A stretch of 64,000 bases of DNA from Candidatus Latescibacterota bacterium (GCA_029941565.1 JAPYRN010000004.1:119797-183796); one strand, 5' to 3'; counted from the first letter of the stretch, positions 4,738 through 47,207 are shown. Numbers and translations: made by a program. The notes: generated by a model from the sequence alone, not told the origin.

Positions 4738-4759
4738 CGTGGGTAAGCCTACTGGTTTT

Positions 4760-10960: not shown

Positions 10961-10963
10961 GCG

Positions 10964-22480: not shown

Positions 22481-22488
22481 AGGATGGT

Positions 22489-24504: not shown

Positions 24505-24547
24505 AGTAAACTGAAGCGCTTCCTGGGTGTCCAATTTAACGCTGTCG

Positions 24548-24576
24548 TTGACAACCGCCACGGAGCACGTTATCGT
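24548..24576 (+). promoter_or_regulatory. sigma70-like promoter TTGACA-N17-TATCGT for the lipoprotein gene
   Basis: TTGACA at 24548-24553 and TATCGT at 24571-24576. AAGGAA RBS 6 nt before GTG 24606. Confidence 0.35.
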
Positions 24577-28276: not shown

Positions 28277-28317
28277 AAAAAGCCCCGGACGCCGAGGCGT
28301 CCGGGGCTTGAAAGCCC
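28277..28317. terminator. bidirectional rho-independent terminator
   Basis: A7 tract, then stem GCCCCGGACG/CGTCCGGGGC (28283-28292 and 28298-28307), then TTGAAAG. Lies between convergent genes. Confidence 0.6.
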
Positions 28318-28346: not shown

Positions 28347-29240
28347 TTACTCTACGAATCCTGCCTTGATGGCGCCCCACGTCGTGCCTTCAACCGCCGT
28401 GCCACCCTCGCCCAGATTCGGATCGAGAGGTGCCGCGACAAAGTCGGTAACGGACGTGTTCGATGATTCAGCCGTAAAGGTCCAGAAGCCCTGGTAATCG
28501 TTGGCGTTGTCGATGTCGCCCATGGCGATCGAGATATGGATCACATCGTTCTCTTCCAGATCCATGAAATCGGTGTTCTCAGGCGTGGCATTTTCCCGGG
28601 GCAGGGCCCAGATGGGAATCACCGACAACTCGTAGAAATAGGTGCTCTCGCCAAACTGCTCACCCGTGAAAGACCAGCCGAACTGCACGTACTCGGTGCC
28701 GTCCTGCAGCCATTCGAGATCGCCGATGGGCTCGAGGGACTGATAGATACCACCTACAGGAGGAACGACCCATTTGTAGAAGAAGTCGTTGATGGGAATA
28801 TCATCGACATTGCGGCTATGCTCTTCAGACGGAGTATGGTCAGGGTTTACGCCGACCTCCCAGTTGTCATCGTTCCAATGCCGTGCTGGATCCTCGCGGT
28901 CCGTGTTATGGATATTGTCGAAGATCTCGGTGGCAAAGTAGATCTTGTTCTGACTGTCGTTCCAGCCCAACCGGTGACGAACGTTGACATCGCTTGGATC
29001 GAATTCGCCCCGACCTGCCGCCTGAAACTGGGCGGGGTCGAACAACTTGTCGCTGCGTACCGTGTAGGGATTGTCCGGAACAATATTCCAGTCGCTGTGG
29101 TCGCCGTCGACCGTCGGGACCCGATCATCTGGGAACTGGACCAGGAAGAACAACTCTCCTGGTGGGTCATGGGCGGCTGCCAGCGAAGGCAGGCTTAGGA
29201 CTAGTGCTAAGACGAAAAGAACACTCCATTTACCTCTCAT
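28347..29240 (-). CDS. secreted CBM9/DOMON-like carbohydrate-binding protein
   Basis: Signal peptide. Segment RVPTVDGDHSDWNIVPDNPYTV...KIYFATEIFDNIHNTD resembles the family-9 carbohydrate-binding domain. Confidence 0.5.
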   Translation of the reverse strand: MRGKWSVLFVLALVLSLPSLAAAHDPPGELFFLVQFPDDRVPTVDGDHSDWNIVPDNPYTVRSDKLFDPAQFQAAGRGEFDPSDVNVRHRLGWNDSQNKIYFATEIFDNIHNTDREDPARHWNDDNWEVGVNPDHTPSEEHSRNVDDIPINDFFYKWVVPPVGGIYQSLEPIGDLEWLQDGTEYVQFGWSFTGEQFGESTYFYELSVIPIWALPRENATPENTDFMDLEENDVIHISIAMGDIDNANDYQGFWTFTAESSNTSVTDFVAAPLDPNLGEGGTAVEGTTWGAIKAGFVE

Positions 29241-29448: not shown

Positions 29449-31572
29449 TCAATATGCAATCGACACGGTACCGAGTTGCAACTCAGCCTCCCCGGTGCCA
29501 AGAAAGAGCCGATATATATAGGTCCCCGGAGGCACCGGTACACCATCAAGCCCCATGCCGTCCCACCGTTGCTGGCCAACGCCGCTGCGAGCCTCGATCA
29601 TTGCGCCAATTCCAACCTGTCTGCCGGCGAGATCAAAAATCTGCAGACTGACGGGTCGATCGATGGTCACCTGTAACAGCCGGTAATCGAGGATGAGTTC
29701 GTCGTTGATGCCATCACCGTTGGGGGTAAATGGATTCGAACTGACCTCGACGTCGATCAGCAGGTCACCACCTATGGGAGTTCGTACGGACAGATCGTCC
29801 CCTGAAAAACGGAATGTCGCATTGCCCGGGCTGATCTGCTGACGGATGCTGTCCGGATCATCGCTATTAAAGACCCAGCCGGTGAATTTGGTCCCATACC
29901 GCAACACGGCCGCATCAAACTGGACCTCGAGTCGTACCAGATTGTCCTCGACGCCCTCGACTTTGGGAAAGGACAGCAGCAGGCGGTCCTCGTGGATCTC
30001 TGGTGTGTAGGTGATCGGGTCGAGTTCCACGCCCTCAAGAAGCACGGAGCGAACCGTGTCGGCCCGGGTATGGGTGAGAATCTCAAGACGGTCGAAACCA
30101 GCGTTGTCCCTGTCCATGATCGGCTGCACGACATAGGTAAACGTCTCGGATTCGAAAGAGGCAACCTCGACAGGCCAGATTTCGCCGACGATCTGACTGG
30201 CAGCGGGGGTTTCGCCGATCTGTAATGACAGACTCTGCAGACTCGGCGCCCGGTCGAATGTGGACAACAGTTTGAAGGAGATCTGCAGATAGCGGCTGGG
30301 GCCTGGAGACAGTGTCGCGGTGCCATCCTTCCAGTCAGCAGCGGACAGCGTGTCGTCCTTCAGGCCCGCAGCGAAGTCGTATGGCGGCGACCAGAAACTC
30401 CAATTCTCCGAGTCATACCTGGTGGAGATGTTCGACGCCGACGACAGCAGCAGTTGGTTATATGTCTTGGCATCGACAGGCAGGACATCACCATTGAGAT
30501 TGCCGGCGAAGTAGAGGGTGGGATCGTCGGTCCGGCCGGTGCGTGTGCGTATCTCAAGGTGAGTGCCCTCAGGCTGCTCCCCTTCCCAGCGAATCTTGCC
30601 CCAATTGACGGGTTTGCCGAAATCGAGGATCTGGGTCTGGTAGAACGCCTCCTCAACGAAGCCATTCGCATACACTTCAAACTCGGCGAATTCCCACTGC
30701 CGTAGTGGAAAGGCCTTGAAGGTGAGCCATCGAATCGAACGATTAGGGAAGGATAGATCGACGACGACGTCGATGTTTTCGCTGCTGGCCTGCAACTCGT
30801 CGAGCAAGGGATCTCGATCGACGATCCAACGCAGGTTGGTCGCTGTCAACTGAGATCCCGTGCCGCCGCCGCATGGTCCGCCGCTGAAGCGTACGTCCTT
30901 GCCCCCGGTTCGCACATCGTACCAGGCGACGAAATTATCGGCGAAGCTCTCCTCGCCAAACCTTTCGGGTCGGGGTTCAGACAGACCATCGATCAACAGC
31001 TGATCATCACCCGTACCCAGGCGTGGAAAGAAACGGACGCGGTTGACGGGGACCTCGGAGCCAAAATCGAGGATGATCGTGCGCCGCCAACCGCTGCCAT
31101 TACCCGGCAATAAGTTCGGATTCTGCCGGAACAGCCGAAAAAGGGCAGTCGAGGCGTTGCCATCGAACATCTGTTTGATCGTCGGCTGCTGCTGTGGCCA
31201 ACAGATGCAGCAATCGTTGGACAACACCCGTCCCCCCGTCTGCGGCAGAGGGATGTCCTTTTCCGCGGAGGCTGGATCGGTGAGGGCAATATTGGTTTCG
31301 GGATCGAAAAACCGTGGACTCAGTGTATTGTCGGAGAAGTCGACGAGGGTATCGGTTCCCACCGTGCGCGCCGAGACGCCGACAGCAACCGTCCGCAGTA
31401 CGTTGCCGGCGCGGTCGTAGACGACGTAACTTCCAGCATCCTCCTCGGAGAGGGCTGCTTGCCAGGGGTTTCCATCTGCGCCACCGAGACGATACTCAGT
31501 CGCCGCCCATACGGATGGTGCGATACCAAGGAGTATGTAAGTGATGCAAAAACGCAATTGCCAGCGTACCAT
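29449..31572 (-). CDS. large secreted protein with F5/8-type-C-like domain and T9SS type-B (CHU_C/gliding-motility) C-terminal domain
   Basis: Start at ATG 31572 (MVRWQLRFCITYILLGIAPSVWA signal). EFEVYANGF discoidin-like strand. C-terminus NPFTPNGDGINDELILDY...PGTYIYRLFLG. Paralog of 31656..33764. Confidence 0.75.
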   Translation of the reverse strand: MVRWQLRFCITYILLGIAPSVWAATEYRLGGADGNPWQAALSEEDAGSYVVYDRAGNVLRTVAVGVSARTVGTDTLVDFSDNTLSPRFFDPETNIALTDPASAEKDIPLPQTGGRVLSNDCCICWPQQQPTIKQMFDGNASTALFRLFRQNPNLLPGNGSGWRRTIILDFGSEVPVNRVRFFPRLGTGDDQLLIDGLSEPRPERFGEESFADNFVAWYDVRTGGKDVRFSGGPCGGGTGSQLTATNLRWIVDRDPLLDELQASSENIDVVVDLSFPNRSIRWLTFKAFPLRQWEFAEFEVYANGFVEEAFYQTQILDFGKPVNWGKIRWEGEQPEGTHLEIRTRTGRTDDPTLYFAGNLNGDVLPVDAKTYNQLLLSSASNISTRYDSENWSFWSPPYDFAAGLKDDTLSAADWKDGTATLSPGPSRYLQISFKLLSTFDRAPSLQSLSLQIGETPAASQIVGEIWPVEVASFESETFTYVVQPIMDRDNAGFDRLEILTHTRADTVRSVLLEGVELDPITYTPEIHEDRLLLSFPKVEGVEDNLVRLEVQFDAAVLRYGTKFTGWVFNSDDPDSIRQQISPGNATFRFSGDDLSVRTPIGGDLLIDVEVSSNPFTPNGDGINDELILDYRLLQVTIDRPVSLQIFDLAGRQVGIGAMIEARSGVGQQRWDGMGLDGVPVPPGTYIYRLFLGTGEAELQLGTVSIAY

Positions 31573-31655
31573 GGTTTTCCCCCCGTAGCGGTTAGTATAT
31601 ATTATGAAACAGTTCCCACACAGACAATCCATTTAGGCCGATTCTGACTTCTCGG

Positions 31656-33764
31656 GTGAGGATGATGAGATCACAGAAGAGAGCGAGCCTCTGGGCCCTG
31701 GCAGTAGCGATCCTGTTGTTGACGCCCGGTCAGAACATGGCTCTGGAATCGGTCGTCATCGGAGATGAGTTGGATTGGCTCGGAGAAGGCACCGCTTCGG
31801 TGGGTCGAATCGATGCTGTGCATCGCTCTCCTCTCGTCGCCAATCGGCTCCTGGTGGGCAACGCACCAGGCCAGTTGATCGAGTTTGACAGTCCGGACTG
31901 GCCAGGCAGCATCTTGCCTCTGCGCTTCGAAGAGGGCGAGAATATCGCCACCGGCACACTCGAGCGCGGCGGTGGTATTACAGCGCCCAATATCCTTGAC
32001 TTTGGACGCTCCATCTCGGTGGGCAGCTCCGACGTCTTCGACGAGAATGACCTGCGGATCTCGCTTGAGGAGATCATGCTGGCGGAGCCGGGGGGGGAAC
32101 TCGACGCATTTCAGCGCAAGAACTTCAATGCCTTCGGGATCCTCGTCTTTGTCGATCTCGGCGGGCGTTTCGGCGTCGATCGGATCCGTTTCTACCCACG
32201 GAACACCATCCAGAGTTCTCCCGGTACGCCCTTCGAGAACGATTTCATGCGGGCCTTCGAATTGTTCACCAACGACGGCACCCTTACCGCCAGCGGCAAC
32301 AAGATCTGGGATCCACTCCTGCTGGTGAACGACAACCAGGATCCTATCGTCGACGTGACTATGGATCCGCCTCGACTCGTGCAGTCGATACGGTTGCGGT
32401 CCACGTCCAACATCAACTTCGAAATCGACGAGTTTGAGATCTACGGCAAGGGGTTCCTTTCCGAAACCGAGTACATCTCCGACATCTTCGACATGTCTGA
32501 ACCCGCTGTCTGGGGGGACTTGCGCTGGGCGGAAGAGATTATCGGCGACACCTTGTTCTCCAAGGCCAGAATCAGCACTCGTACCGGAAGTGACGACAAC
32601 CCCTTTGTCTTCACCCGCGTTCTTGCCGGTAAACGGGATGCCGAACCCATCCCATTCTCCCTGCTGGATCCGCTGCAGGAGATGGGACTCGACGAATACG
32701 AAAAACTGCCTGCCGTCGATGGCATTGGCCGCCAATGGGAAGCCGGACCCATCACCGATGACCTCTTCAATTGGAGCCCCTTCAGCACGCCCTATCCTGC
32801 CACTGAGGCAAATGGCCCAGGTATCGCGATCACGTCGCCCAGTCCGCGACAATTCCTGCAGTTCCGCGTCCTGTTTAGCAACGCGGGCCTCGAATCGGCT
32901 CGTGCCATCACCTCCCTGAGTTTCGACTTCCAAACCCCTGCATATGCCGACGAGGTGGTGGCCGAGGTGTTTCCTCGCGAGGTCGAGGCTTCGACTCTCA
33001 ACACCTTCACCTTCGCGATGCGTTCGGCCATTCGCAGTGCTGGTAAGCTCGGCTATGACATCGTCGAGATTTCGACGCCCTCAAAAGTTGCCAGTATCGA
33101 TCGAATCGAACTGACCAACGCCTCCGGCAGTGTACTCGCAGAGCGCACCTTCTCAGGACTGGAGGATGCAGACATGGTCGATGGTTTCCAGATCCTGACG
33201 GTCGACGCCGATCGCTTCAGACTGGCCGTACCTCTCGTGGAGGAGGACGGTGTTCTGCTCACAGTTCAGTTCCAGACCGGTGTTCTGACGTATAGCACCA
33301 ATTTCAGGGCCACCGTAGAACACTCGACGGTACCCGGCGCATCGCAGCCAGCGGTTTCCGGCAATGCCGCCACACTTTCGGTGGATGATATCGACGATTT
33401 TTCCGGCACAACGGTGTTGAGTCCACCACTCATCGGTGGGCATCTTCTCGATCTCGTCGCCGTCGTGCCAAATCCCTTCACGCCGAATGGTGACGGGATC
33501 AACGACGAAGCGGCAGTTCAGTACAGTCTGTTGTCGGTGAGTGCAGATCGTCGGGTGAATATCGATATCTACGATCTGAGTGGCAGACGGGTCCGCAGTT
33601 TGCACGATGGGCTTGAGTCTAACGGCCGCTTCGAGGACAAGCTCTGGGATGGGCGCAGTGATGGCGGAAAGCTGGTGCCTCCGGGAATCTATATCGCTCG
33701 TCTCGCCGTGGACGGAGACGCGATCCAGGAAGAGAAGTCAATCGTGGTAAGCGTCGTCTACTAG
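31656..33764 (+). CDS. large secreted protein with F5/8-type-C-like domain and T9SS type-B C-terminal domain
   Basis: Signal peptide. FEIDEFEIYGKGF. C-terminus VPNPFTPNGDGINDEAAVQYSL...PGIYIARLAV. Divergent from its paralog across an 83-bp AT-rich spacer. Confidence 0.75.
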   Translation: MRMMRSQKRASLWALAVAILLLTPGQNMALESVVIGDELDWLGEGTASVGRIDAVHRSPLVANRLLVGNAPGQLIEFDSPDWPGSILPLRFEEGENIATGTLERGGGITAPNILDFGRSISVGSSDVFDENDLRISLEEIMLAEPGGELDAFQRKNFNAFGILVFVDLGGRFGVDRIRFYPRNTIQSSPGTPFENDFMRAFELFTNDGTLTASGNKIWDPLLLVNDNQDPIVDVTMDPPRLVQSIRLRSTSNINFEIDEFEIYGKGFLSETEYISDIFDMSEPAVWGDLRWAEEIIGDTLFSKARISTRTGSDDNPFVFTRVLAGKRDAEPIPFSLLDPLQEMGLDEYEKLPAVDGIGRQWEAGPITDDLFNWSPFSTPYPATEANGPGIAITSPSPRQFLQFRVLFSNAGLESARAITSLSFDFQTPAYADEVVAEVFPREVEASTLNTFTFAMRSAIRSAGKLGYDIVEISTPSKVASIDRIELTNASGSVLAERTFSGLEDADMVDGFQILTVDADRFRLAVPLVEEDGVLLTVQFQTGVLTYSTNFRATVEHSTVPGASQPAVSGNAATLSVDDIDDFSGTTVLSPPLIGGHLLDLVAVVPNPFTPNGDGINDEAAVQYSLLSVSADRRVNIDIYDLSGRRVRSLHDGLESNGRFEDKLWDGRSDGGKLVPPGIYIARLAVDGDAIQEEKSIVVSVVY

Positions 33765-33778
33765 ATCAGGGCACTAAG

Positions 33779-36034
33779 TTAAGGTGCGGCGCTCCCCATC
33801 AACTGTTCGACCTGACTCCGGATCTGAGCCTCGGCGACTCGACGCACCTCACCCTCTCTGGTGATCTGAGCGGCGCGCTGGAAATGCTGTGCCGAATCCT
33901 GCTGCCGGCCAAGACGCTGGTACAGATTGCCCAGACATCGATGGACGAGGGCGATGTCCGACTCCAGAACCAGCAGCCTCTCAAAGTGCGGCAGGGCGGG
34001 TTCGTAGCGCTGCTGGCGCGCCAACAGCAGTCCGAGGCCCCAATGGGCGGCAGCAGACTTCGGTTCCAGTTCGACCGCCTCGCGCAACAGATCCTCGGCT
34101 TCAGCTGGCGCCGTCTCCTGTTGCACTAGCAGATTCGCCAGATGAATGCGGTATTCGGCCTGCTGGGGAGCCTGTTGCACCAGGTGGCGCAGTTCGGCGG
34201 TCGCCGTCGCACGATCCCCCAGGGACTCGTACAGACGTGCCAGTTGATAACGAACCACAGAAGAGTCGGGTCGAATCTCGAGGGTACGCCGATACGCCCC
34301 AAGGGCTTGCTCCCGTCTGCCATCCATGAGATAAGCATAGGCGAGTTCTCCATGCAATCGGGCCCAGTCCGGCCGCGACAGCAATAGCGCTTCATACACA
34401 CCGATGGCCTTGGCATACCGTTTCGTCTGCAGGTAGGTGGTACCCAGCAGATACCGGACGGGGTCGGCCTCCGAGTGCTCGCGCAGATAACTCTCATAGA
34501 GTCTGGCCGCCTCGTCATGCTCCTGCTGTCGGTTATGCAACTGAGCCAAGGCCAGCAGGGCCCCCCTGTGGTCAGATTCTCTATGCAGAACACGACGATA
34601 CTCCTCCATCGCGTTGATGGGCATCGCTTTTTTCTCGTAGGCATACCCCTGCCAGAAATGTTGCTGAGTATCGGCCTCTGCCGCTACGGGTGCCGCCCCG
34701 ATATTGCATATCACGCCCAGCACGATGACCACTGCCAGAGAGCGAAATCGTCGGTTGCTGTGGCGGATGGAGTGCACCCCGTATGCGGCAAACAGTAGCA
34801 GGAAGGGCACGGCGGGTAGTCGGTATCTCGAGGTGACGAAGAACAGCACCACGGACAGCATGTAGACGAGTGGCAGCAGAGCCAGCAGTCGTCCCTGCGG
34901 CGTACCTCCCGCAGGCTGGCGCCAGAACGAGAACCATCCGAAGAGGGCGAGTGGACCCACCAGGCCAAATGGAAAGGCCAGCCCGAGCCCCTGCCAGAGC
35001 AAGGCGCTCAGCAGTAATGAGTCCTGCCGCGCCCAGTAGAGATCGAGGTTGCGCCGAATCTCGTCCCCCCGCCAGAACAGATAGAACTTGCGCAGCGTCA
35101 AGCCAAGGAAGGCGACGGGCTCCCGTCGTGCGAACTCGAAGGACTGGGCGAAGAAAAATCGCGACTTCGCCGAGGCGGTCTCAATGCCGGCAACCCGCTC
35201 GGGCATTTCGACCAACTCCGACCACTGTTGCCCAGGGCGGATATTTACTGTCTGCTCGTAGTCGGGATTGTTGCCGATGTAAAAATTGACCCCGGCATTG
35301 GATGAGATGAGTACCCAGTCAGCTCCGACGAAGTAGTTGCGTGCCGTCACCGGCGCGATGATCAGTCCCGACCCCAGCAGTAACAATCCACCATTGAGAA
35401 GGATCCGGCGGGTCTCAGTACCCGCACGGTGATGGGTCCAGGCAAGCCACAACAACAACATGGGTAGAAATAGCAGTGCATTGGCTACGGCCAACGCGGA
35501 GAGTCCGAGTAACACACCTGCCAGGAGCCAGCGCTTCGGAGTCAACTCTTTGTCAGACATCCTACCCAACAACACGTACACAAGAAGCAAATCTAGCCCA
35601 ATCCCAAGAAGGGTTGGCAACAACTCTCCGCCGAAGTAGATGAGGGGGCCATATACGGTGGCGGCAAGGGCCGCACCCAGAGCCACCGATGGTGGGAATA
35701 CGCGGTAGGCGATGAGATAGAGGAGGGCGCAGATGCCAGCCCCCACAAGAGCCTGAAGCAGATGTGGTGCCCAGACGCCTGGACCGCAGATCGAATAGAT
35801 CAGGCCCAGAATGTAGGGGTATAGAGGCGGCTGCCAGAACGGACGTGACGGTCCAAGCCAGGAACTCGAGCTTAACTCAAGCGCGCCATCGACATAGCTC
35901 TTAGCATCGACGACGGGGACCTCGAAAAACAGGCTGTCCGCGGCCTCATAGAGGTAGAGGAGCCGCAACAGCAAGGCCAGTACCCCCAGCCACAGGGCGG
36001 CCCTTTGTGGAGTCCCAAGGACAGGCCGACTCAT
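33779..36034 (-). CDS. GT-C fold (PMT_2/ArnT-like) membrane glycosyltransferase fused to C-terminal TPR repeats (TMTC-like architecture)
   Basis: About 430-aa polytopic N-terminal domain. Acidic first-loop motif after TM1 (EVPVVDAKSYVDGALEL) resembles the PMT/ArnT catalytic loop. About 300-aa C-terminal TPR array. Confidence 0.6.
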   Translation of the reverse strand: MSRPVLGTPQRAALWLGVLALLLRLLYLYEAADSLFFEVPVVDAKSYVDGALELSSSSWLGPSRPFWQPPLYPYILGLIYSICGPGVWAPHLLQALVGAGICALLYLIAYRVFPPSVALGAALAATVYGPLIYFGGELLPTLLGIGLDLLLVYVLLGRMSDKELTPKRWLLAGVLLGLSALAVANALLFLPMLLLWLAWTHHRAGTETRRILLNGGLLLLGSGLIIAPVTARNYFVGADWVLISSNAGVNFYIGNNPDYEQTVNIRPGQQWSELVEMPERVAGIETASAKSRFFFAQSFEFARREPVAFLGLTLRKFYLFWRGDEIRRNLDLYWARQDSLLLSALLWQGLGLAFPFGLVGPLALFGWFSFWRQPAGGTPQGRLLALLPLVYMLSVVLFFVTSRYRLPAVPFLLLFAAYGVHSIRHSNRRFRSLAVVIVLGVICNIGAAPVAAEADTQQHFWQGYAYEKKAMPINAMEEYRRVLHRESDHRGALLALAQLHNRQQEHDEAARLYESYLREHSEADPVRYLLGTTYLQTKRYAKAIGVYEALLLSRPDWARLHGELAYAYLMDGRREQALGAYRRTLEIRPDSSVVRYQLARLYESLGDRATATAELRHLVQQAPQQAEYRIHLANLLVQQETAPAEAEDLLREAVELEPKSAAAHWGLGLLLARQQRYEPALPHFERLLVLESDIALVHRCLGNLYQRLGRQQDSAQHFQRAAQITREGEVRRVAEAQIRSQVEQLMGSAAP

Positions 36035-36060
36035 CGGTCCGTCGCCCTATTATGCAATCG

Positions 36061-38733
36061 CTACTGCAAGCCGGCGTAGACGGTAATAAAGCTCTTGGCC
36101 AGTGTCTGCGACTTGGCACCCTTGGGATCGTCGCGACGGACCTGCATACCCATCTGCATGGTCAGTGCATAACCCAGATACGCCGAGCGGTTCGACATCT
36201 GCACCGCCCACACGAGGCCCTTGGAGTCGTTGACGCTCTGTTCGAAGTCATTAAGGATGATGTATTCGACACCGGCTTCGAGGGTGGTATGGCGCAATAC
36301 AGCCAACTCGCCGAGGATGCCGAAGATCTCGGAAAGTTCGTTCCGTTTCCGCAATTCTGTGAGTCCCACAGTCTGCTTGCGATACTCACTCTTCCATCTG
36401 GGTTCGAGGCCGACCACGCCAATTTCGAATCGGTAACTGGCTTTGTTGATGACGCCGAAGAAGTAGTCGCGCTCGCGCAGACCAAGGGGGATTCTTTCGC
36501 TCCGATCGAGCCGCTGATGGAAGAGATCGTATTTCAGCATGTTGCTCGTCGTCAGGCCGGCGACGGAAATATCGTGGCCCAGCCACAGAGAGTTAACCCA
36601 CGTGTCTTGGGCAATCAACGGATCCTGGATCTTTGAAGCTTCCCCCGTGCGGATGTTGGTATTGGGCAGCCACTGCAACAGATCATCAGGGATATCGTCC
36701 TCCACCGATTTGAACATCTCAAAAAAGCGGAAACGACCCCAGTCGGGGGTGTCCTGGTCGACGGTGAACATCACATAATTGGCGTTGTTCTCCTGATCGG
36801 ACGAAATCAGCTCTTCGTGCAGAACGCCACCGCTGATCTTGATCTCCGGGGTCAGGTGGGTGCCCACATAGAGGTTGTAGCCCCGGTGATCCTTCGGGTA
36901 GGGATAATCGGGCAGCTCGTCATTTTCGAAACGATCGATCCACAAGTTGTGGTTCATGTCGATGCCGAAAAGGAATTCAGGTCGATCGACGTTGTGGCGC
37001 AGGAAGGGCTCTTCGTAGTCAGGAACCGAATTGCTCAGGGAGCGGTTGTCATTCTGGTTGAAGTCGGAGATGAAGTCGTTGTTCTCGTCCCAACCCGGAT
37101 AGACCTCCTGGTCGCCCTGGATCCAGTCCTTACGCACGGTGTCGGGAAAACGATCCTGGTCGTCATTGTCCTCTACCAGTTCGACGACGTGGAAGCGCTC
37201 GTCCTCGTAATCAATAAATCCGGAACTGAGGGCGGTGAAGGTCCGCGTCGTGTAGCGCGGGTCCATACTGTAGGCTTCGAGCAGTCCGAAGTAGGGATAG
37301 TCGATGCGCGACAGATTCATCATCCAGGCTTCGGCGCCCCGATCGCCCTGAATGCCGGACCAGGTGGAGTGTTCCTGCTGGGTGATATTGGGGTACTTTG
37401 TATAGGAATAGCTGAGGTCGTACTCACCGTAGAAGTCGAACCCCATCAGATCCTTGAACTCCACGGTGCCACCCCAAATCTGGGTTGCCGTGGGCAGACC
37501 GTATTCAAAGCTGACAATCCGCAGATTGGTGTTGTCCTGCACATTGCCCTCCGCCTGGGCGACGAGCAACAGCGTGGATACGTCGGAGGCGTTGAGCTGC
37601 TGATCCGAGGAGACCCACACCTGGTAGTCGTTGCCCAGGACCATGCGAAACTCGACGCGCTCGATCTCCTCTTTGGCACCGAGGGCACGGTTGACGAAGG
37701 CCGGGCTGTTCAGATCGTAGATCAGCCGAATCTCTTCATCGCCGTCGGCTGACAGGAAACCTTCGCCGACAAAACCACCCTCGATGATCGGTTCAAACCG
37801 CATCTCCTTGCCACTTTGCGTCGTGCCGTCAAGGTAGGAGATGATGATATCAGAACCGGCGGGGAAGAAGGCGGCACCACCGACGCCGTCTTCCGGTGAG
37901 TCGTCGCGCAACACGACCTCGATGCTCGAGACCGTCGCGTTCTGGCTGATGGTGAGGGCACCCGAAACGGGGCTGGCCTCGAAGCCGTCAAGCAAGGTAT
38001 TGGACTGATGCGTATTGACGGCATGAACTCCCAGGGTGGCAAAATCGCCGACCTGGGCCGTGAAACGCCCGCCGAAGAGCGACGTGGAGTTCGTCGCCAG
38101 ATTCTCCAGATTTCCCGTGGTGCTACCACCGGGATTGCTGAGACGGGAGTAGATGACGGTGCCCATGTACTTGTCAGCGGTGTAGTCGAACTGAATTCCG
38201 TCCCACCGTGGCTTGGAGAATGTCATCGGCGTCAGCGTGCTGCGGATGTTGTCGCTGATCGTGATGGCATAGTGGTGTTGGCCCTTGGAGTCAGATGAGA
38301 CCACGAGGGAGTTGAACCAGCCATTGAAACGGCTCGACTTGAGGACAGAGTTACCAAATTGCTGGGGCTGCGTCTGGGAATTGTTGAAGATCAACCAGCC
38401 GCGCGTGATATAATTGCCGTAGAGATCGTAGAAGTAGTCTCCCTCAAGTATCTGATCCACATACCGTTGGTAATTATTTCGAGCGTAGTTGGAGTACTCC
38501 CACTGTTGCCACTGGTACTCGTTGTAGAGTTCCTGGGGGACGTACCACTTCCGCTTCACCGGATCGAGGGCATCCATCAGCACGCCCGGTCCCGAGGGGT
38601 GGAAGTCTACTTCACCGCCCCGTTGGATCGAGCCCAGACGGGTCCCATAGTCCTGTGCGAGGCTTGGTGAAAGGCTCAGAAAAAGGCAGATCCCAACCAG
38701 TAGGGACAGCGATACGCCTGTTCTACAATGCAC
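36061..38733 (-). CDS. putative outer-membrane beta-barrel protein (890 aa), unknown family
   Basis: Signal peptide LSLSPSLAQD. Rich in N/D/Y/W/G. C-terminal third shows alternating amphipathic beta-strand pattern (LVWAVQMSNRSAYLGYALTMQMGMQV...FITVYAGLQ). Lower GC than flanking genes. Lies between the type-B cargo gene and the GT-C/TPR gene with 20-26-nt gaps. Confidence 0.45.
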   Translation of the reverse strand: MHCRTGVSLSLLVGICLFLSLSPSLAQDYGTRLGSIQRGGEVDFHPSGPGVLMDALDPVKRKWYVPQELYNEYQWQQWEYSNYARNNYQRYVDQILEGDYFYDLYGNYITRGWLIFNNSQTQPQQFGNSVLKSSRFNGWFNSLVVSSDSKGQHHYAITISDNIRSTLTPMTFSKPRWDGIQFDYTADKYMGTVIYSRLSNPGGSTTGNLENLATNSTSLFGGRFTAQVGDFATLGVHAVNTHQSNTLLDGFEASPVSGALTISQNATVSSIEVVLRDDSPEDGVGGAAFFPAGSDIIISYLDGTTQSGKEMRFEPIIEGGFVGEGFLSADGDEEIRLIYDLNSPAFVNRALGAKEEIERVEFRMVLGNDYQVWVSSDQQLNASDVSTLLLVAQAEGNVQDNTNLRIVSFEYGLPTATQIWGGTVEFKDLMGFDFYGEYDLSYSYTKYPNITQQEHSTWSGIQGDRGAEAWMMNLSRIDYPYFGLLEAYSMDPRYTTRTFTALSSGFIDYEDERFHVVELVEDNDDQDRFPDTVRKDWIQGDQEVYPGWDENNDFISDFNQNDNRSLSNSVPDYEEPFLRHNVDRPEFLFGIDMNHNLWIDRFENDELPDYPYPKDHRGYNLYVGTHLTPEIKISGGVLHEELISSDQENNANYVMFTVDQDTPDWGRFRFFEMFKSVEDDIPDDLLQWLPNTNIRTGEASKIQDPLIAQDTWVNSLWLGHDISVAGLTTSNMLKYDLFHQRLDRSERIPLGLRERDYFFGVINKASYRFEIGVVGLEPRWKSEYRKQTVGLTELRKRNELSEIFGILGELAVLRHTTLEAGVEYIILNDFEQSVNDSKGLVWAVQMSNRSAYLGYALTMQMGMQVRRDDPKGAKSQTLAKSFITVYAGLQ

Positions 38734-38753
38734 GGCTTCCTCCTTACGAGGTT

Positions 38754-41700
38754 TCAGTATGCCACCGCGATGACCCGCGTGCGAACGGATGACACGTCGG
38801 CATCATCTGCTTCCACTTTCAACCGACAGATATAAAGCCCAGGGGCGACGAGGTCGCCATTGTCATCAATACCAGCCCAGACAATCCCCTCACGACCGAT
38901 TTCCACCGCCTCTGCGCTCTGCCACACGAGGCGCCCATTGAGACTGTAAATCCTAACAACAGCCTGCCTGGGAACAGAAATCTTAAACACGGAAAAAACG
39001 ATCACAGTTTGGTCGTTGATGCCGTCCCCATTGGGGGTGATCGTGCTGGGGACGATTCGAAAATCATTGAGCAGTTGCGTGTCGAGTGGCACACCGATGG
39101 TCAGTGTGTTGGCCGCACTCAACGAGGTCGCATCCCCCGACTCGATATCCTGCCAGAGAGCGTCGGACCGCGTGCCATTGCGACCGTCCCGGACGGCGAT
39201 ACGCAGGGTGGTACCGTTGGTGAATACCGGCGCTTTGAAGCGCGCCACAACCAACGGTCCCGGGCCGCTGATCGTGCCGCGGCTGCTGGTGCGCAGTGCA
39301 TTGTAGCTGCCGGCAGTCAGTGAGTCGCCATCGACGGTGAAGGGAAACTGATCGCCATCACCCAGAAGTAGACGGAAATAACGGATCGGCCCCTGCTCCG
39401 GCTCCGGCAGAGCCAAGTAGGTGGTGGCATCGACCTGATTCAGCGTGATGCGTCCAGTGGTGCTCACGACTTGGCGAAAGTGGCGGACGTCACCCCTTTC
39501 ATTTTCCGGCAGGACACCATAGGAGGCCTGGGTCAGCAACTGACCATCGTGGCTGACCGGTACCAGGTCACCCTCAGAGGTAATGCGGTTGTAGGCCCTG
39601 TCGACATCACCGAGAATATTGAGATTCTCCGGAAGTCTGACCCAGATCGAATCGGAGCCGGTGGCCAGCAACTGTAAGGCCTCACCCGCTTGATCGATAA
39701 ATGGCTCTCCTGGCCCTGTGGGCCGAAATAGTCGCTGTGCAGTGCCGGACTCTGCATCGACACCAACGCCCAGATCGAGAAGTTCCAGGTCCTGCGATGC
39801 CGGCATGCGCAACAGGAGTTCATCGAAGCCGGTGCTGCGCGAAACGATGGGATTCTCGATGAAGTCGGGCTGTACGAAAACCGTGAATGTGTCGATCTGG
39901 CCTGGGTTGGCGATCTGCGCCGGCTCCATTTCCGCCAGGATGGCACCGGCCACCGGTTCGAGCAAGCCGATATTGATGGAGTGAATGGCGGCGGCCATAT
40001 CCTTGTCCTCAGAGGTCATACGAACACGGATCTGCAGGAATTTTTTATGTCCCGGGGAGGTCACACGGTCACCAGGTGTCTGGTATGGTCGACTCCAGGA
40101 ACTCCAGCCAGTGGTCGGTACGAAGCTCGTATCAGCCGGTCCCTTGAAAGTGGAGAACAGGCTGTTCCAATTGCTGAAGGGGATCTCGCTCCCCGACGCG
40201 TCGTAGTATTTGGTGACCTTGCCCAGAACGGAACCGGTACGGGTACTGATCTCCACGTTTGTTCCCGGGGGTACGTCCGCATCCCAGCTGATGCGTCCGG
40301 GGTTGCGTCCCTGGATCTCGACCAGGTCGGACTCCATAGCGACCGCCGCCGGATAACCTCGGGAGTAGAGCATGTATTCGCCGATGATGGGACCCGTATT
40401 GTACCCTCCTCGGCGGCTGGGGCTCGAGGATGTGACGATGGTTTCGATGAAGCGCATTTTCCGGGGTGGATCGAAGGAGTCCATAAGGAACCGATACAGA
40501 GTCAGTCGGTTGTCCTCGCGCTCCAACGGGCTGAGACGTTGCCATTTCAACTCGCCGGTGGCGTCTCGGGCACCGTCTGAGGAGCGCATGATATACCCAT
40601 CGAGAATGTAGTTTGACCCACGACGCGGAAAGACTGCGACCCGGATGGCGTCCATCCACAGGGTGGTTCCCATGTCGATGGTCATCACACCGCGGTCGAC
40701 AACCGGAGACCAGACCAGGTGCTGGAAGTTGGAACTGAAATCAGCATCAAAGGCGGGTGCCGCTGTGAAGTTGCCACCGCTGAGGTGGATGTTGCCACCA
40801 CTCTCGGTCAGCGTCGGGCTCAGATTGTCACCCCAGCCCCAGGCCTCGATATCGGCGAGTCGGGGACGTTCGCGGATGTAAAAGTCCCTTCGGCCCTGCC
40901 GCGCCGGTGGCAGGGCTTCGTAGTCTGCCAGACCTGCCATCGGTTCCTCAAAGCCCAGCTGGTCCTTGCTGAAGTAGACGATGTCACCACGATCTGACGG
41001 GATGATGTCCAGCCACGCCTGCTCCGAGTCAAGCAGTCGACCCCTGCCTCCCTTTGTGTCCGAAACCACGAAGCGGATCGTCTCGACAAGGCGACCTGAC
41101 CAATCCGGACCGGCCAGCGACTGTTGCAGCGGGATGGAAAATGTGAGTTGATCGACATTCGGCGCCTTGGTGCCGTAAACGAGGGTTAACTGAAGTTTTT
41201 CCTCCTCCTGCGAAATGGCCCGCTGGAAGGGAGAGTCGAGAATGCGGAACTGGCGGAAGGGATCGCCCAGAGTAGGATCAACGAAGTGCATGACCAGCGA
41301 GTCCACGGGCACGACCCGACCCAAGTCCACCTCCACCCACCAGTTTTCCACCGGGTCGTCGGGATCGGGCTCCCAGTATGTCGTTGGGTCACCGTCCAGA
41401 ATGTTGGCCGCCGTCGCAGGATTCGATCCCACCCGGCTGATTCCGGGTCGCAGGAGAAAGGAGTAGACCGGGAGTGTCTTTCCCTTCTTCGTCACCGTGA
41501 TGAGGTTGCCCTGCACGTCATACGTGACGGTACTGTCGATGTTCAGGATGCCCGACTGCCCCTTCCTGAGCTTGAAACCAGACAATGGCCGGGTAAATGT
41601 ATCGAGGTCATCGAGCAGATCGTAGCGGTCGCGGGAGAAGTGTGGTTGCAGAGTTCCGCTCGGAGTTACATCCACCGCACTCTTCGGCAGGTTCCAATTG

Positions 41701-41855
41701 TTCCAGTGCGACGCACTTGTGACGGTGATCTGGGTTGTCGTAACCCGGTGCCCGCTCTGGGCCGTCGCTTGGCGCGGCGCTGACAGCATCGCTGCCGTCA
41801 TGACAGCGGGCAGAATCCACGTCAGGGGTCGTACGTAGTCTAACCGAAGTCCCAT
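38754..41855 (-). CDS. very large secreted protein with T9SS type-B C-terminal domain
   Basis: Start at ATG 41855 with AGGAG RBS (six-frame N-terminal extension rejected). Signal peptide. C-terminus ITPNGDGINDQTVIVFSV...PGLYICRLKV. Confidence 0.75.
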   Translation of the reverse strand: MGLRLDYVRPLTWILPAVMTAAMLSAPRQATAQSGHRVTTTQITVTSASHWNNWNLPKSAVDVTPSGTLQPHFSRDRYDLLDDLDTFTRPLSGFKLRKGQSGILNIDSTVTYDVQGNLITVTKKGKTLPVYSFLLRPGISRVGSNPATAANILDGDPTTYWEPDPDDPVENWWVEVDLGRVVPVDSLVMHFVDPTLGDPFRQFRILDSPFQRAISQEEEKLQLTLVYGTKAPNVDQLTFSIPLQQSLAGPDWSGRLVETIRFVVSDTKGGRGRLLDSEQAWLDIIPSDRGDIVYFSKDQLGFEEPMAGLADYEALPPARQGRRDFYIRERPRLADIEAWGWGDNLSPTLTESGGNIHLSGGNFTAAPAFDADFSSNFQHLVWSPVVDRGVMTIDMGTTLWMDAIRVAVFPRRGSNYILDGYIMRSSDGARDATGELKWQRLSPLEREDNRLTLYRFLMDSFDPPRKMRFIETIVTSSSPSRRGGYNTGPIIGEYMLYSRGYPAAVAMESDLVEIQGRNPGRISWDADVPPGTNVEISTRTGSVLGKVTKYYDASGSEIPFSNWNSLFSTFKGPADTSFVPTTGWSSWSRPYQTPGDRVTSPGHKKFLQIRVRMTSEDKDMAAAIHSINIGLLEPVAGAILAEMEPAQIANPGQIDTFTVFVQPDFIENPIVSRSTGFDELLLRMPASQDLELLDLGVGVDAESGTAQRLFRPTGPGEPFIDQAGEALQLLATGSDSIWVRLPENLNILGDVDRAYNRITSEGDLVPVSHDGQLLTQASYGVLPENERGDVRHFRQVVSTTGRITLNQVDATTYLALPEPEQGPIRYFRLLLGDGDQFPFTVDGDSLTAGSYNALRTSSRGTISGPGPLVVARFKAPVFTNGTTLRIAVRDGRNGTRSDALWQDIESGDATSLSAANTLTIGVPLDTQLLNDFRIVPSTITPNGDGINDQTVIVFSVFKISVPRQAVVRIYSLNGRLVWQSAEAVEIGREGIVWAGIDDNGDLVAPGLYICRLKVEADDADVSSVRTRVIAVAY

Positions 41856-43620: not shown

Positions 43621-43778
43621 AGCTGGTCGGCTAGAATAATTTCGCTCAATTCGGGCCCTAATATAGATGAGCATGAATGGTTGTCACAAGCCGGTTGCCT
43701 TGCTGGAACTTACACCACTCTGATACTTTGCACCGTGTCGTCAAACGGTGTGGATTTCTGACAAACAAGAAGGCAAAG

Positions 43779-47199: not shown

Positions 47200-47207
47200 G
47201 AGGGTGT

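What the first reader, a model, noticed from the sequence alone, without database searches (positions are those of the whole stretch)
29449..41855. Island of three giant T9SS type-B (CHU_C-like) cargo proteins with a dedicated beta-barrel-like protein and a GT-C/TPR glycosyltransferase
Three secreted proteins (about 700-1030 aa) end in the gliding-motility/type-B sorting domain (NPFTPNGDGINDE...). Two are head-to-head paralogs with F5/8-type-C-like strands. The third heads a minus-strand operon: PPIase, then cargo (38754..41855), then an 890-aa N/Y/W-rich beta-barrel-like protein (36061..38733), then a PMT/ArnT-like GT-C membrane glycosyltransferase fused to a long TPR array (33779..36034), with gaps of 20-52 nt. 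Known type-B cargos are usually paired with about 300-aa PorP/SprF-family barrels. An 890-aa barrel plus a TMTC-like O-glycosyltransferase is not the canonical arrangement. It suggests a cargo-specific export and protein-glycosylation module.
Basis: partly seen in the sequence, partly recalled or inferred. Interest (0 to 1): 0.7.

Follow-up and report, generated by a model that had tools for sequence, protein, structure and literature searches.

The report
Latescibacterial lectin-cargo and giant-barrel cassette
The genes are real and form one copy of a conserved, many-times-repeated cassette of the uncultured phylum Latescibacterota. In it, secreted sugar-binding proteins with a type-IX-like sorting tail sit next to a large outer-membrane barrel of an undescribed family, a membrane glycosyltransferase with TPR repeats and a folding chaperone; nobody has studied the cassette.

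Summary
All six genes exist at the stated coordinates, and three more window genes recur with the same unit: a 297-aa CBM9-like gene, a DUF6785 membrane protein and an ASPIC/TPR gene.

The window is Latescibacterota-like, not Bacteroidota, and the region is not an island. The unit recurs at 551 or more loci in species-representative genomes. Up to five copies per chromosome appear among the best 80 loci.

- **Cargos:** the modelled cargo E is non-catalytic and built from CBM32/discoidin modules, and A and B are its paralogues. Their C-terminal domain passes Pfam CHU_C but fails NCBIfam TIGR04131. Other window proteins carry true type-A T9SS tails.
- **890-aa protein:** it matches no Pfam or NCBIfam family. 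It is predicted, at moderate confidence, as a large outer-membrane beta-barrel whose nearest folds are MtrB, SlpA, ushers and LptD. It is the most conserved cassette member. A CTD cargo lies directly upstream of 88% of 107 copies.
- **GT-C call:** it holds. PMT_2 matches 22 of 23 homologues.
- **Distant versions:** these place a PorP/PorV-like small barrel between cargo and barrel, and add a long TPR protein and ExbB/ExbD.

My best reading is a dedicated outer-membrane docking or translocation partner for type-B-like lectin cargos, with periplasmic chaperoning and probable glycosylation. A glycan-import role is a serious rival. I rate it a new variant of a known kind.

The parts
36061..38733 (-). 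890-aa protein D: Sec signal peptide (...SLA|QDYG), then a predicted large outer-membrane beta-barrel. It has a conserved N-terminal region (about residues 30-140), an inserted beta-sandwich (about 270-395) and an invariant Asp/Asn-rich segment (about 520-612). The mature protein has no cysteine and ends in YAGLQ.
38754..41855 (-). Cargo E, 1033 aa: signal peptide, several CBM32/F5-8-type-C-like beta-sandwich domains, and a 7-strand C-terminal domain with a TPNGDGINDQ loop, ending VIAVAY.
33779..36034 (-). GT-C (PMT_2) polytopic membrane glycosyltransferase (about residues 1-450) fused to a C-terminal TPR array (about 455-740).
   Evidence: PMT_2 scores 46.2 bits against a gathering score of 26.1, and many TPR families match. 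PMT_2 matches 22 of 23 homologous N-domains, and 2 of them also hit the Alg9-like GT22 family. D43 in the motif PVVDA[KR][ST]Y is nearly invariant. The protein sits directly downstream of D in most loci.
31656..33764 (+). Cargo B, 702 aa: paralogue of A and E, with a type-B-like C-terminal domain (NPFTPNGDGINDE ... VSVVY).
   Evidence: CHU_C 33.3 bits. 30% identity to A. Core and C-terminal similarity to E. C-terminal sequence.
29449..31632 (-). Cargo A, 727-aa ORF (probable start 31572, giving 707 aa): paralogue of B and E, divergently transcribed from B.
   Evidence: CHU_C 31.7 bits. Paralogy. Alternative start with a signal peptide.
28347..29240 (-). 297-aa secreted protein with weak CBM9-like similarity. 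It is a recurrent last gene of the cassette.
   Evidence: CBM9_1 E 0.0018, below threshold. Homologues are found in 56 of the related loci, usually after the cargo pair or after a second D. A CBM9-like 310-aa gene also lies in the distant locus L090.
41908..43674 (-). PpiD/SurA-like parvulin PPIase with an N-terminal membrane anchor or lipoprotein-like signal. It is the first gene of the minus-strand operon.
   Evidence: Rotamase_2 (two stretches), Rotamase and SurA_N_3. A PPIase lies upstream of the large cargo in most loci.
28280..28309 (.). Strong hairpin terminator (13-bp stem, 10 G-C pairs). It lies between the convergent ends of the 297-aa gene and the ASPIC/TPR gene and marks the left edge of the unit.
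45208..47199 (+). DUF6785+DUF6784 polytopic membrane protein, a recurrent neighbour of the cassette. The start at 45208 is inferred from MKHAIPKLY.
   Evidence: Pfam DUF6785 E 1e-111 and DUF6784 E 1e-30. A copy lies within 10 kb of D in 35 of 84 loci, and also in distant loci L087, L089 and L090. A crude hydropathy scan of the window's other copy (22489-24561) gave about 12 hydrophobic segments.
25412..28276 (+). FG-GAP/ASPIC (UnbV) beta-propeller plus TPR protein, a recurrent neighbour of the cassette.
   Evidence: Pfam FG-GAP_3, UnbV_ASPIC and TPR. ASPIC and/or TPR genes sit beside the cassette in many loci.

Best explanation
This is one copy of a conserved, multi-copy Latescibacterota cell-surface cassette. 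Three paralogous Sec-exported proteins (A, B, E) end in a 7-strand C-terminal sorting domain of the T9SS type-B kind. The modelled one, E, is a non-catalytic array of CBM32/discoidin-like sugar-binding domains.

The 890-aa protein D is a large outer-membrane beta-barrel of an undescribed family. I propose that D is the dedicated outer-membrane partner of these cargos. It would dock their C-terminal domains, and possibly let them pass, so that the lectin arrays are displayed on the cell surface. This parallels the way type-B substrates of Bacteroidota depend on a cognate barrel encoded directly downstream.

The anchored parvulin PPIase would keep cargo or barrel export-competent in the periplasm. 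The GT-C/TPR protein would bind a periplasmic client through its TPR array and glycosylate it from a lipid-linked sugar.

**Shown here:** gene content, homology, predicted folds and synteny.

**Inferred:** the cargo-barrel interaction, the direction of transport, the glycosylation substrate and the display function.
For: - **Conserved cassette.** The order is [DUF6785]-PPIase-(TPR/ASPIC)-cargo of about 1020-1100 aa-D of about 890 aa-GT-C/TPR-two cargos of about 700 aa-[second D]-297-aa gene. It recurs in 80 loci from Latescibacterota genomes.
- **Tight cargo-barrel linkage.** 94 of 107 D genes have a CTD cargo directly upstream on the same strand. 78 have GT-C/TPR directly downstream.
- **Copy number.** Up to 5 copies per chromosome appear among the best 80 loci.
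- **Conservation.** D is the most conserved member: median 64% identity against 40-47% for cargos, PPIase, full-length GT-C/TPR, DUF6785 and the 297-aa gene; the GT-C membrane domain alone is 55%.
- **D fold.** Signal peptide, all-beta barrel model, and only outer-membrane barrels as structural matches. The best are barrels that hold or pass a partner: MtrB, SlpA, ushers, LptD.
- **Cargo.** The C-terminal domain passes Pfam CHU_C and models as 7 strands. The body matches CBM32 modules.
- **Two tail classes in one genome.** Other window proteins pass TIGR04183, the type-A tail, at 33.8 and 33.2 bits against a cutoff of 23. The PNGDGIND class is confined to the cassette cargos.
- **Core conserved across phyla.** Ignavibacteria and marine lineages keep the order cargo, PorP/PorV-like small barrel, D-family barrel(s), long TPR protein, with ExbB/ExbD nearby.
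- **Published precedent.** Type-B substrates need a cognate PorP/SprF-like barrel encoded directly downstream. Five F. johnsoniae operons add a PorE homolog; the PorE family is a TPR-bearing periplasmic T9SS component (that domain make-up is from my own knowledge) (PMC12618676). PorE-PorP-PG1035 and SprF-SprB complexes have been shown (PMC9143113).
- **GT-C.** PMT_2 matches 22 of 23 homologues, and there is a near-invariant Asp after TM1.
Against: - No physical or expression evidence exists. The interaction and the transport direction are inferred from synteny and analogy.
- D has no detectable sequence relation to PorP/SprF, PorV or SprA. It lacks the C-tail cysteines that SprF needs (PMC12635249).
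- In distant versions a PorP/PorV-like barrel coexists with D. D is therefore an additional component, not just a large PorP.
- The C-terminal domain fails NCBIfam TIGR04131: 22.2 bits for A and 20.9 for B against a cutoff of 35, and no reported hit for E.
- I could not test whether Latescibacterota have the T9SS core (SprA, PorK-N, PorU).
- Some cassettes have only a TPR protein without the GT-C domain, so glycosylation is not obligatory.
- Neighbouring sugar-utilisation genes, DUF6785 and ExbB/ExbD fit an import role equally well.
- The D model has only moderate confidence. Residues 22-150 and 522-610 are below pLDDT 50.
Confidence: 0.45

Rival explanations
1. PUL-like glycan capture and import device. 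D is an outer-membrane uptake channel, energised in some lineages by ExbB/ExbD. The CBM32 cargos are surface glycan-binding proteins that feed it, like SusE/F or SusD on SusC. DUF6785 is the inner-membrane permease. The sorting tails only serve to put the lectins on the surface. This rival overlaps with the best explanation, because docking on D could serve import.
For: - The cargo body matches CBM32 modules and a SusE-like protein.
- DUF6785 lies within 10 kb in 35 of 84 loci.
- ABC sugar transporter, LacI, GlcNAc epimerase, heparinase, PcRGLX, sulfatase and GH123 genes lie beside cassettes.
- ExbB/ExbD are adjacent in distant versions.
Against: - D has no Plug or TonB_dep_Rec match.
- D is much more conserved than the cargos across paralogous cassettes. 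That is not expected for substrate-specific importers.
- The PPIase, GT-C/TPR and PorP/PorV-like partners point to biogenesis or export.
- The barrel matches are generic: 5-13% identity and TM-scores of 0.2-0.3.
Confidence: 0.25
2. Stand-alone T9SS-like secretion pathway. The D-family barrels are the translocon. An ExbB/ExbD-type motor, a long PorW/YbgF-like TPR protein and a PorP/PorV-like shuttle work with them, and the pathway is dedicated to CHU_C-tailed CBM32 cargos. The window cassette would be a cargo-plus-translocon module that uses the motor and shuttle in trans.
For: - Operons in L085, L088, L089, L090, L091 and L092 encode the cargo, a small PorP/PorV-like barrel, 1-3 tandem D paralogues and a TPR protein of about 1050-1090 aa. 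ExbB/ExbD are adjacent in all of these except L091, whose contig ends about 7 kb downstream.
- The small barrel hits PorV_fam at 57 and 50 bits (below threshold) and PorP_SprF at 19 bits over the full profile. A relative passes the gathering score.
- The long TPR protein hits PorW/SprE at 87 bits, below threshold.
- A 56%-identical small barrel lies in the same Latescibacteria MAG that holds four D paralogues.
Against: - All T9SS-family hits are below curated cutoffs, and the TPR hits are generic.
- ExbB/ExbD clusters commonly serve TonB-type import.
- No motor or shuttle genes lie in the window or in the 80 Latescibacterota cassettes, except ExbD at the flank of L044.
- The genome also has type-A tails, which implies a conventional T9SS may already exist.
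Confidence: 0.15
3. Envelope-structural or S-layer-like array. D is a SlpA-like outer-membrane anchor, and the glycosylated cargos form a surface coat.
For: - SlpA (8ae1) is the second-best Foldseek match.
- Distant D members give below-threshold Pfam SlpA_C hits.
- A GT-C is encoded in the operon.
- High copy number and high conservation of D.
Against: - The SlpA_C hits are below threshold, cover only about 90 residues, and are absent from the window protein and its 39 close relatives.
- D has no SLH or coiled-coil domain.
- Many divergent cassette copies argue against a single lattice.
Confidence: 0.08
4. An ordinary Bacteroidota T9SS type-B cargo island, with genes that are only loosely associated.
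For: CHU_C Pfam hits.
Against: - Best homologues are all from Latescibacterota-type MAGs.
- The window has no PorP/SprF gene.
- Synteny is conserved across at least 80 loci.
- There is no compositional island.
Confidence: 0.03

Closest known systems
T9SS type-B substrate with its cognate PorP/SprF-like barrel (+/- PorE-like TPR protein) in Bacteroidota, e.g. SprB-SprF, Fjoh_3952-3951-3950, PG1035-PorP-PorE (PMC12618676, PMC9143113)
   Same: - The cargo ends in a C-terminal beta-sandwich with the PNGDGxND motif and a Pfam CHU_C hit.
- An outer-membrane barrel gene lies immediately downstream of the cargo gene.
- A TPR-containing protein follows in the operon.
- Several such operons occur per genome.
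- Distant versions of this cassette contain a PorP/PorV-superfamily small barrel.
   Different: - The barrel has 890 aa and at least about 24 strands, against about 300 aa. It has no sequence similarity to PorP/SprF and no C-tail cysteines.
- The TPR partner is fused to a GT-C glycosyltransferase. PorE instead has a propeller, a CRD and an OmpA module.
- The host phylum is Latescibacterota, where no T9SS has been described.
- The C-terminal domain fails TIGR04131.
Large partner-holding outer-membrane barrels: MtrB (26 strands), SlpA (30), FimD/PapC ushers (24), LptD (26)
   Same: - Best structural matches to the D model.
- Similar size class.
- The predicted beta-sandwich inserted after the first approximately six strands recalls the usher plug position.
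   Different: - TM-scores are only 0.2-0.3, with 6-10% identity.
- No Pfam match to Usher, LptD or MtrB families.
- D has no C-terminal usher domains, no SLH domain and no cytochrome partner in the operon.
SusC/SusD-type utilisomes and SusE/F surface glycan-binding proteins
   Same: - CBM-rich, non-catalytic surface proteins are encoded next to a large outer-membrane barrel.
- The neighbourhoods are rich in carbohydrate-active genes.
   Different: - D has no plug or TonB box.
- The cargos are not lipoproteins and instead carry sorting tails.
- The barrel is more conserved than the binding proteins.
GT-C glycosyltransferases with TPR domains (eukaryotic TMTC1-4; bacterial PMT_2/ArnT-type GT39/GT83 enzymes)
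   Same: - A PMT_2-type polytopic N-domain with a conserved Asp in the first extracytoplasmic loop.
- A C-terminal TPR array, as in TMTCs.
   Different: - No hit to the TMTC-specific DUF1736 domain.
- No detectable sequence similarity to any solved GT-C.
- Donor and acceptor are unknown.
- The GT-C domain is absent from some cassette copies.

Membership tests
T9SS type-B C-terminal domain (Pfam CHU_C PF13585 / NCBIfam TIGR04131) | Match to the Pfam CHU_C profile above its gathering score, at the extreme C-terminus | tested here: met
   A scores 31.7, B 33.3 and E 29.9 bits against a gathering score of 27. The matches cover residues 632-721, 604-696 and 935-1016. Homologues of E nearly all carry PF13585.
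T9SS type-B C-terminal domain (Pfam CHU_C PF13585 / NCBIfam TIGR04131) | Match to NCBIfam TIGR04131 above its curated cutoff of 35 bits | tested here: not met
   A scores 22.2 and B 20.9 bits. E has no hit at E <= 0.01. The Ignavibacteria orthologue scores 23.0 bits.
T9SS type-B C-terminal domain (Pfam CHU_C PF13585 / NCBIfam TIGR04131) | Ig-like beta-sandwich fold of about 7 strands in the last 100 residues or so | tested here: met
   The AF2 model of E has 7 strands between residues 929 and 1031, with pLDDT of about 80-89. The PNGDGIND loop (940-946) is of low confidence.
T9SS type-B C-terminal domain (Pfam CHU_C PF13585 / NCBIfam TIGR04131) | The host encodes the T9SS core (SprA/Sov, PorK/L/M/N, PorU/V) | not testable with these tools
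   The window and the loci hold none. Whole Latescibacterota genomes could not be scanned. Indirect evidence: two window proteins pass the type-A tail model TIGR04183, and a PorV/PorP-like barrel lies in a Latescibacteria MAG. No paper links the phylum to T9SS.
PorP/SprF family shuttle/anchor barrel (TIGR03519, PF11751) | Sequence match to the family profile | tested here: not met
   D and 39 relatives give no hit even at E <= 10.
PorP/SprF family shuttle/anchor barrel (TIGR03519, PF11751) | [quoted passage not shown] | tested here: met
   The gap is 20 nt in the window. 94 of 107 D genes have a CTD cargo directly upstream.
PorP/SprF family shuttle/anchor barrel (TIGR03519, PF11751) | Size of about 300 aa and C-tail cysteines that bond to GldK (SprF; PMC12635249) | tested here: not met
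   D has 890 aa. The mature protein has no cysteine and ends in YAGLQ.
GT-C glycosyltransferase, PMT_2 type (GT39/GT83-like) | Match to Pfam PMT_2 above its gathering score in a polytopic membrane domain | tested here: met
   46.2 bits against a gathering score of 26.1, covering residues 68-220. 22 of 23 homologues match. About 10 or more hydrophobic segments were found.
GT-C glycosyltransferase, PMT_2 type (GT39/GT83-like) | Conserved acidic residue in the first extracytoplasmic loop | tested here: met
   D43 in PVVDA[KR][ST]Y is conserved in at least 90% of 23 sequences. Equivalence to the catalytic Asp of ArnT or PMT was not shown structurally.
GT-C glycosyltransferase, PMT_2 type (GT39/GT83-like) | GT-C fold and lipid-linked sugar transferase activity | not tested
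Sequence and profile searches of the PDB gave nothing.
TonB-dependent transporter / SusC | N-terminal plug domain and TonB box inside a 22-strand barrel | tested here: not met
SlpA-type outer-membrane barrel (PF21620) | Match to the SlpA_C profile, plus SLH and coiled-coil N-terminal domains | tested here: not met
   Only below-threshold hits of about 90 residues in four distant members (17-30 bits against a gathering score of 35). None in the window protein. No SLH domain.
Outer-membrane beta-barrel protein (generic) | Signal peptide, and an antiparallel all-beta closed barrel with structural matches only to outer-membrane proteins | tested here: met
   Confidence is moderate (pTM 0.63). The terminal residue is polar rather than aromatic, although the Ignavibacteria homologue ends in ...LFAGF.

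The most novel reading that the evidence does not exclude
The D family would be the outer-membrane conduit or platform of a previously unrecognised T9SS-like pathway in non-Bacteroidota FCB phyla. Its full form would be an ExbB/ExbD-type motor, a long TPR protein of about 1050-1090 aa, one to three tandem barrels of about 900-1050 aa, a PorP/PorV-like shuttle and a CBM32 cargo with a type-B-like tail. In Latescibacterota the pathway would have expanded into many cargo-barrel-GT-C/TPR-PPIase cassettes that glycosylate and display lectin arrays.
Probability: 0.15. Interest if true: 0.9.

Novelty: new variant of a known kind. Interest (0 to 1): 0.66.

Why it matters
Latescibacterota are widespread, uncultured polysaccharide degraders. 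How they build their cell surface is essentially unknown.

This cassette encodes a large, highly conserved outer-membrane barrel family with no annotation. The family has about 950 clusters at 50% identity. In the best-matching Latescibacterota loci it is almost always paired with lectin-like proteins that carry a type-IX-style sorting tail, and the cassette is repeated many times per genome.

If the barrel is the cargos' dedicated partner, the cargo-plus-cognate-barrel logic of type-B T9SS substrates extends beyond Bacteroidota, with a non-homologous and much larger barrel. It would also link that logic to a GT-C/TPR enzyme, a candidate bacterial counterpart of TMTC-type protein glycosylation. 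If the barrel is instead an importer, it would be a third architecture for glycan uptake, beside SusCD and porins.

Either way it yields concrete, testable gene sets for a phylum that has no genetic system.

Tried and rejected
- **Pfam and NCBIfam scans of D.** I scanned D, 39 close relatives and 10 distant relatives. No family passed. Four of the distant members gave below-threshold SlpA_C hits.
- **PDB sequence and profile searches.** D, the GT-C N-domain, the 297-aa protein and DUF6785 all returned nothing meaningful. The full-length GT-C/TPR matched only TPR proteins.
- **DUF6785 versus GT-C.** An hhalign comparison tested whether DUF6785 is a second GT-C. There was no relation.
- **AFDB Foldseek.** The library was unavailable.
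- **Literature.** I searched for Latescibacteria with T9SS or type IX, FlgD-Ig sorting tails, and DUF6785. Nothing was found.
- **Motor and shuttle genes in the 80 Latescibacterota loci.** A BLAST search for PorP/PorV-like barrels and ExbB/ExbD found only ExbD, at the flank of L044.
- **Context of GKR89_10300 (P0459).** It was not on record, so I used its relative P0461 instead.
- **TPR orientation.** Hydropathy counting to fix the side of the TPR domain was too crude to decide.
- **Rejected readings.**
  - A horizontally acquired island: there is no compositional break and the cassette is conserved across the phylum.
  - An usher: no Usher profile and no C-terminal usher domains.
  - A TonB-dependent receptor: no plug.

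Full report
**1. What is in the sequence**

| Gene | Coordinates | Length | Description |
|---|---|---|---|
| A | 29449-31632(-) | 727 aa | cargo |
| B | 31656-33764(+) | 702 aa | cargo |
| C | 33779-36034(-) | 751 aa | membrane/TPR protein |
| D | 36061-38733(-) | 890 aa | unannotated protein |
| E | 38754-41855(-) | 1033 aa | cargo |
| F | 41908-43674(-) | 588 aa | PPIase |

- F, E, D and C are co-directional, with gaps of 52, 20 and 26 nt.
- B converges on C. A diverges from B.
- A more probably starts at 31572, at MVRWQL followed by a signal peptide.
- Downstream of A lies a 297-aa secreted protein, 28347-29240(-). It ends at a strong terminator at 28280-28309.
- GC content dips only slightly (0.56-0.60 against about 0.60-0.62). 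Nothing suggests an acquired island.

**2. Domain calls**

- The C-termini of A, B and E hit Pfam CHU_C just above the gathering score: 31.7, 33.3 and 29.9 bits against 27. FlgD_ig scores just below its own threshold.
- NCBIfam's type-B model TIGR04131 is not reached. A scores 22.2 and B 20.9 bits against a cutoff of 35, and E has no reported hit.
- C has PMT_2 (46 bits against a gathering score of 26) followed by a long TPR array.
- F has two parvulin-type domains and a SurA-like N-terminus.
- D has no Pfam or NCBIfam hit. Neither do 39 close relatives, even at E <= 10.
- A and B are 30% identical over 592 columns. E shares their discoidin-like core and their C-terminal domain.

**3. Whose genome, and is the arrangement meaningful?**

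- Homologues of D (55-83% identity, about 890 aa, all labelled "hypothetical") come from Candidatus Latescibacteria/Latescibacterota MAGs. Several paralogues occur per MAG.
- A profile search of 1.84 billion cluster representatives found 956 members.
- In species-representative genomes, at least 551 loci encode a relative. The best 80 are almost all from Latescibacterota. A few carry Gemmatimonadetes or other labels as deposited. Up to five come from a single chromosome.
- I compared the window proteins with the ORFs of these loci and found a fixed cassette. The order is [DUF6785]-PPIase-(TPR/ASPIC)-cargo of about 1020-1100 aa-D-GT-C/TPR-two cargos of about 700 aa-[second D]-297-aa protein.
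- Of 107 D genes, 94 have a CTD-bearing cargo directly upstream on the same strand. Downstream, 78 have GT-C/TPR and 19 have the 297-aa gene.
- D is the most conserved member. Its median best-hit identity is 64%, against 40-47% for cargos, PPIase, full-length GT-C/TPR, DUF6785 and the 297-aa protein; the GT-C membrane domain alone is 55%.

The finding is therefore one copy of a conserved, multi-copy cassette. Three more window genes recur with it: 28347-29240, the DUF6785 gene at about 45208-47199, and the ASPIC/TPR gene at 25412-28276.

**4. The 890-aa protein**

- An AF2 model from 40 sequences has moderate confidence overall (pLDDT 64.6, pTM 0.63). Its long antiparallel hairpins reach pLDDT 80-90.
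  - The barrel strands lie at about residues 143-245, 405-490 and 616-888.
  - A beta-sandwich is inserted at about 270-395.
  - Two segments are highly conserved but modelled at low confidence: 30-140 and the Asp/Asn-rich 520-612.
- Foldseek ranks MtrB, SlpA, the FimD/PapC ushers and LptD first, with TM-scores of 0.2-0.3.
- D is therefore predicted to be a large outer-membrane barrel, of at least about 24 strands by my count of the DSSP strands. It belongs to the size class of barrels that enclose or pass a partner, and it has no close known relative.
- The mature protein has no cysteine. It ends in YAGL followed by a polar residue, not an aromatic one.

**5. The cargos**

- AF2 of E is confident (pLDDT 84). 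It shows a chain of beta-sandwich domains and a 7-strand C-terminal domain.
- The window holds two classes of sorting tail.
  - Three unrelated secreted proteins end in the classic ...NYPNPFN... tail: 15710-17785, 48391-50355 and 51678-55598. Two of them pass the type-A model TIGR04183, at 33.8 and 33.2 bits against a cutoff of 23.
  - The ...NPFTPNGDGINDE... tail occurs only in the cassette cargos.
- The organism therefore appears to use T9SS-style sorting, and the cassette cargos carry the rarer type-B-like variant.

**6. The GT-C/TPR protein**

- PMT_2 matches 22 of 23 homologous N-domains. Two of them also touch the Alg9-like GT22 family.
- D43 in PVVDA[KR][ST]Y, just after TM1, is nearly invariant.
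- No solved GT-C is detectable by sequence or profile.
- Some cassettes have only a TPR protein of about 310-370 aa at this position. The TPR part is therefore the constant feature and the transferase an addition.

**7. Distant versions**

Members with about 25-30% identity to D occur in Ignavibacteria- and Bacteroidetes-labelled MAGs and in marine lineages. Their operons read as follows:

| Locus | Gene order |
|---|---|
| L085 | ExbB-ExbD-ExbD-cargo(F5/8C+CHU_C)-310-aa barrel-D-TPR(1045 aa)-DUF4159 x2 |
| L089 | cargo-290-aa barrel-D-D-TPR-ExbB-ExbD |
| L092 | cargo-299-aa barrel-D-D-TPR-ExbB-ExbD |
| L088 | two cargos-D-D-D-...-ExbB-ExbD-ExbD-...-TPR |
| L091 | two cargos-D-D-D-TPR-...-DUF4159 (no ExbB/ExbD in the roughly 7 kb downstream before the contig ends) |
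| L090 | D-1095-aa protein-ExbB-ExbD-ExbD-264-aa protein-PPIase-676-aa protein-DUF6785, with a CBM9-like 310-aa gene upstream |

- The small barrel belongs to the PorV/PorQ/PorP-SprF/FadL superfamily.
  - It hits PorV_fam at 57 and 50 bits, below the cutoff of 90.
  - It hits PorP_SprF at 19 bits over the whole profile.
  - A relative passes the PorP_SprF gathering score.
- A 56%-identical small barrel (GKR89_10300) lies in the same Latescibacteria MAG that carries four D paralogues.
- The core that survives across phyla is thus the CBM32 cargo with a type-B-like tail, one or more D-family barrels, and a long TPR protein. A PorP/PorV-like barrel and an ExbBD motor are present in the fuller versions.

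**8. Interpretation**

Published work shows three things about type-B substrates:
- They need a cognate PorP/SprF-like barrel encoded directly downstream.
- Five F. johnsoniae operons add a PorE homolog (PMC12618676).
- Such barrels hold their substrates at the surface (PMC9143113).

The cassette follows the same gene order of cargo, barrel, TPR protein. The differences are a non-homologous barrel three times larger and a TPR partner fused to a GT-C.

I therefore favour a dedicated outer-membrane docking or translocation partner for lectin-type cargos, with periplasmic chaperoning by the PPIase and probable glycosylation by the GT-C/TPR protein (confidence 0.45).

The main rival is a PUL-like import device (0.25). 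In that reading D is the channel, the cargos are surface glycan binders and DUF6785 is the inner-membrane permease.
- For it: sugar-utilisation neighbours, ExbB/ExbD, and the CBM32/SusE-like folds.
- Against it: no plug, and D is unusually conserved relative to the cargos.

The two readings overlap. The most novel reading is that D is the conduit of a stand-alone T9SS-like pathway. It is not excluded (0.15).

**9. What could not be settled**

- Whether Latescibacterota have the T9SS core.
- Whether D contacts the C-terminal domain.
- The direction of transport.
- The donor and acceptor of the GT-C.

Papers state that T9SS is confined to Bacteroidota, with BLAST hints in Chlorobi, Fibrobacteres and Ignavibacteriae (PMC5837995, PMC7463736). 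I found no paper on Latescibacteria and T9SS, or on DUF6785.

**10. Verdict**

- I rate it a new variant of a known kind: type-B-like cargo plus cognate barrel logic, with a new barrel family and a GT-C/TPR fusion, in a new phylum.
- Interest is 0.66. The cassette is large, conserved, unannotated and testable, but every functional claim so far is inferred.

Noticed in passing
window 15710-17785(+), 48391-50355(+), 51678-55598(+): Three unrelated secreted proteins end in a classic T9SS type-A tail (...NYPNPFN...). They are a 691-aa Big_7 protein, a 654-aa CarboxypepD_reg plus MtrC/OmcA-like multihaem cytochrome, and a 1306-aa CBM9+GSDH+haem-binding protein. Two pass TIGR04183. A surface-sorted multihaem cytochrome in this phylum is notable.
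   Followed up: partly
window 20822-22726(-) and 22489-24561(-); also 41908-43674(-) and about 45208-47199(+): The window has two pairs of a Rotamase_2 PPIase next to a DUF6785+DUF6784 polytopic membrane protein. The same pairing recurs in many related loci. The PPIase may therefore belong functionally to DUF6785 rather than to the cargos. DUF6785 has no PDB relative, no relation to GT-C and no literature.
   Followed up: partly
L088 4455-13174, L089 10001-15609, L091 4283-12891, L092 10930-16649: In marine and other lineages, D-family barrels occur as two or three tandem paralogues (28-45% identical). This suggests hetero-oligomeric or serial use.
   Followed up: partly
window 36061-38733(-), residues about 520-612 of the protein: This segment is almost invariant and rich in Asp and Asn (DNDDQD..., WDENNDF..DFNQNDN, DMNxNxWxDRFEND..PDYPY). 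It looks like calcium-binding loops, and AF2 models it at pLDDT below 50. The equally conserved N-terminal residues 30-140 are also unmodelled. Both may fold only with ions or a partner.
   Followed up: no
window 43677-45188(+), 46197-48422(+), 55615-57987(-), 59397-61316(+): The cassette is embedded among polysaccharide-degradation genes: a sulfatase, a right-handed beta-helix protein, a PcRGLX-like rhamnogalacturonan-lyase-type protein and a GH123-like hydrolase. Related loci show similar neighbours (heparinase, GH127-like, ABC sugar transporter, LacI).
   Followed up: partly
window 18341-20815(-): An 824-aa fusion of an MFS-like membrane domain with a spermine/spermidine synthase domain lies directly downstream of the first PPIase-DUF6785 pair.
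   Followed up: no
window 106-6229(+) and 7828-14332(+): Ordinary housekeeping genes lie to the left: glutamate synthase large and small subunits, and a TetR-OEP-MFP-AcrB RND efflux operon.
   Followed up: no
L085 16205-19187; L088 14182-15432; L090 1-542; L091 17153-18388: DUF4159 proteins repeatedly accompany the distant D/ExbBD operons. DUF4340 appears in L088. Their role is unknown.
   Followed up: no
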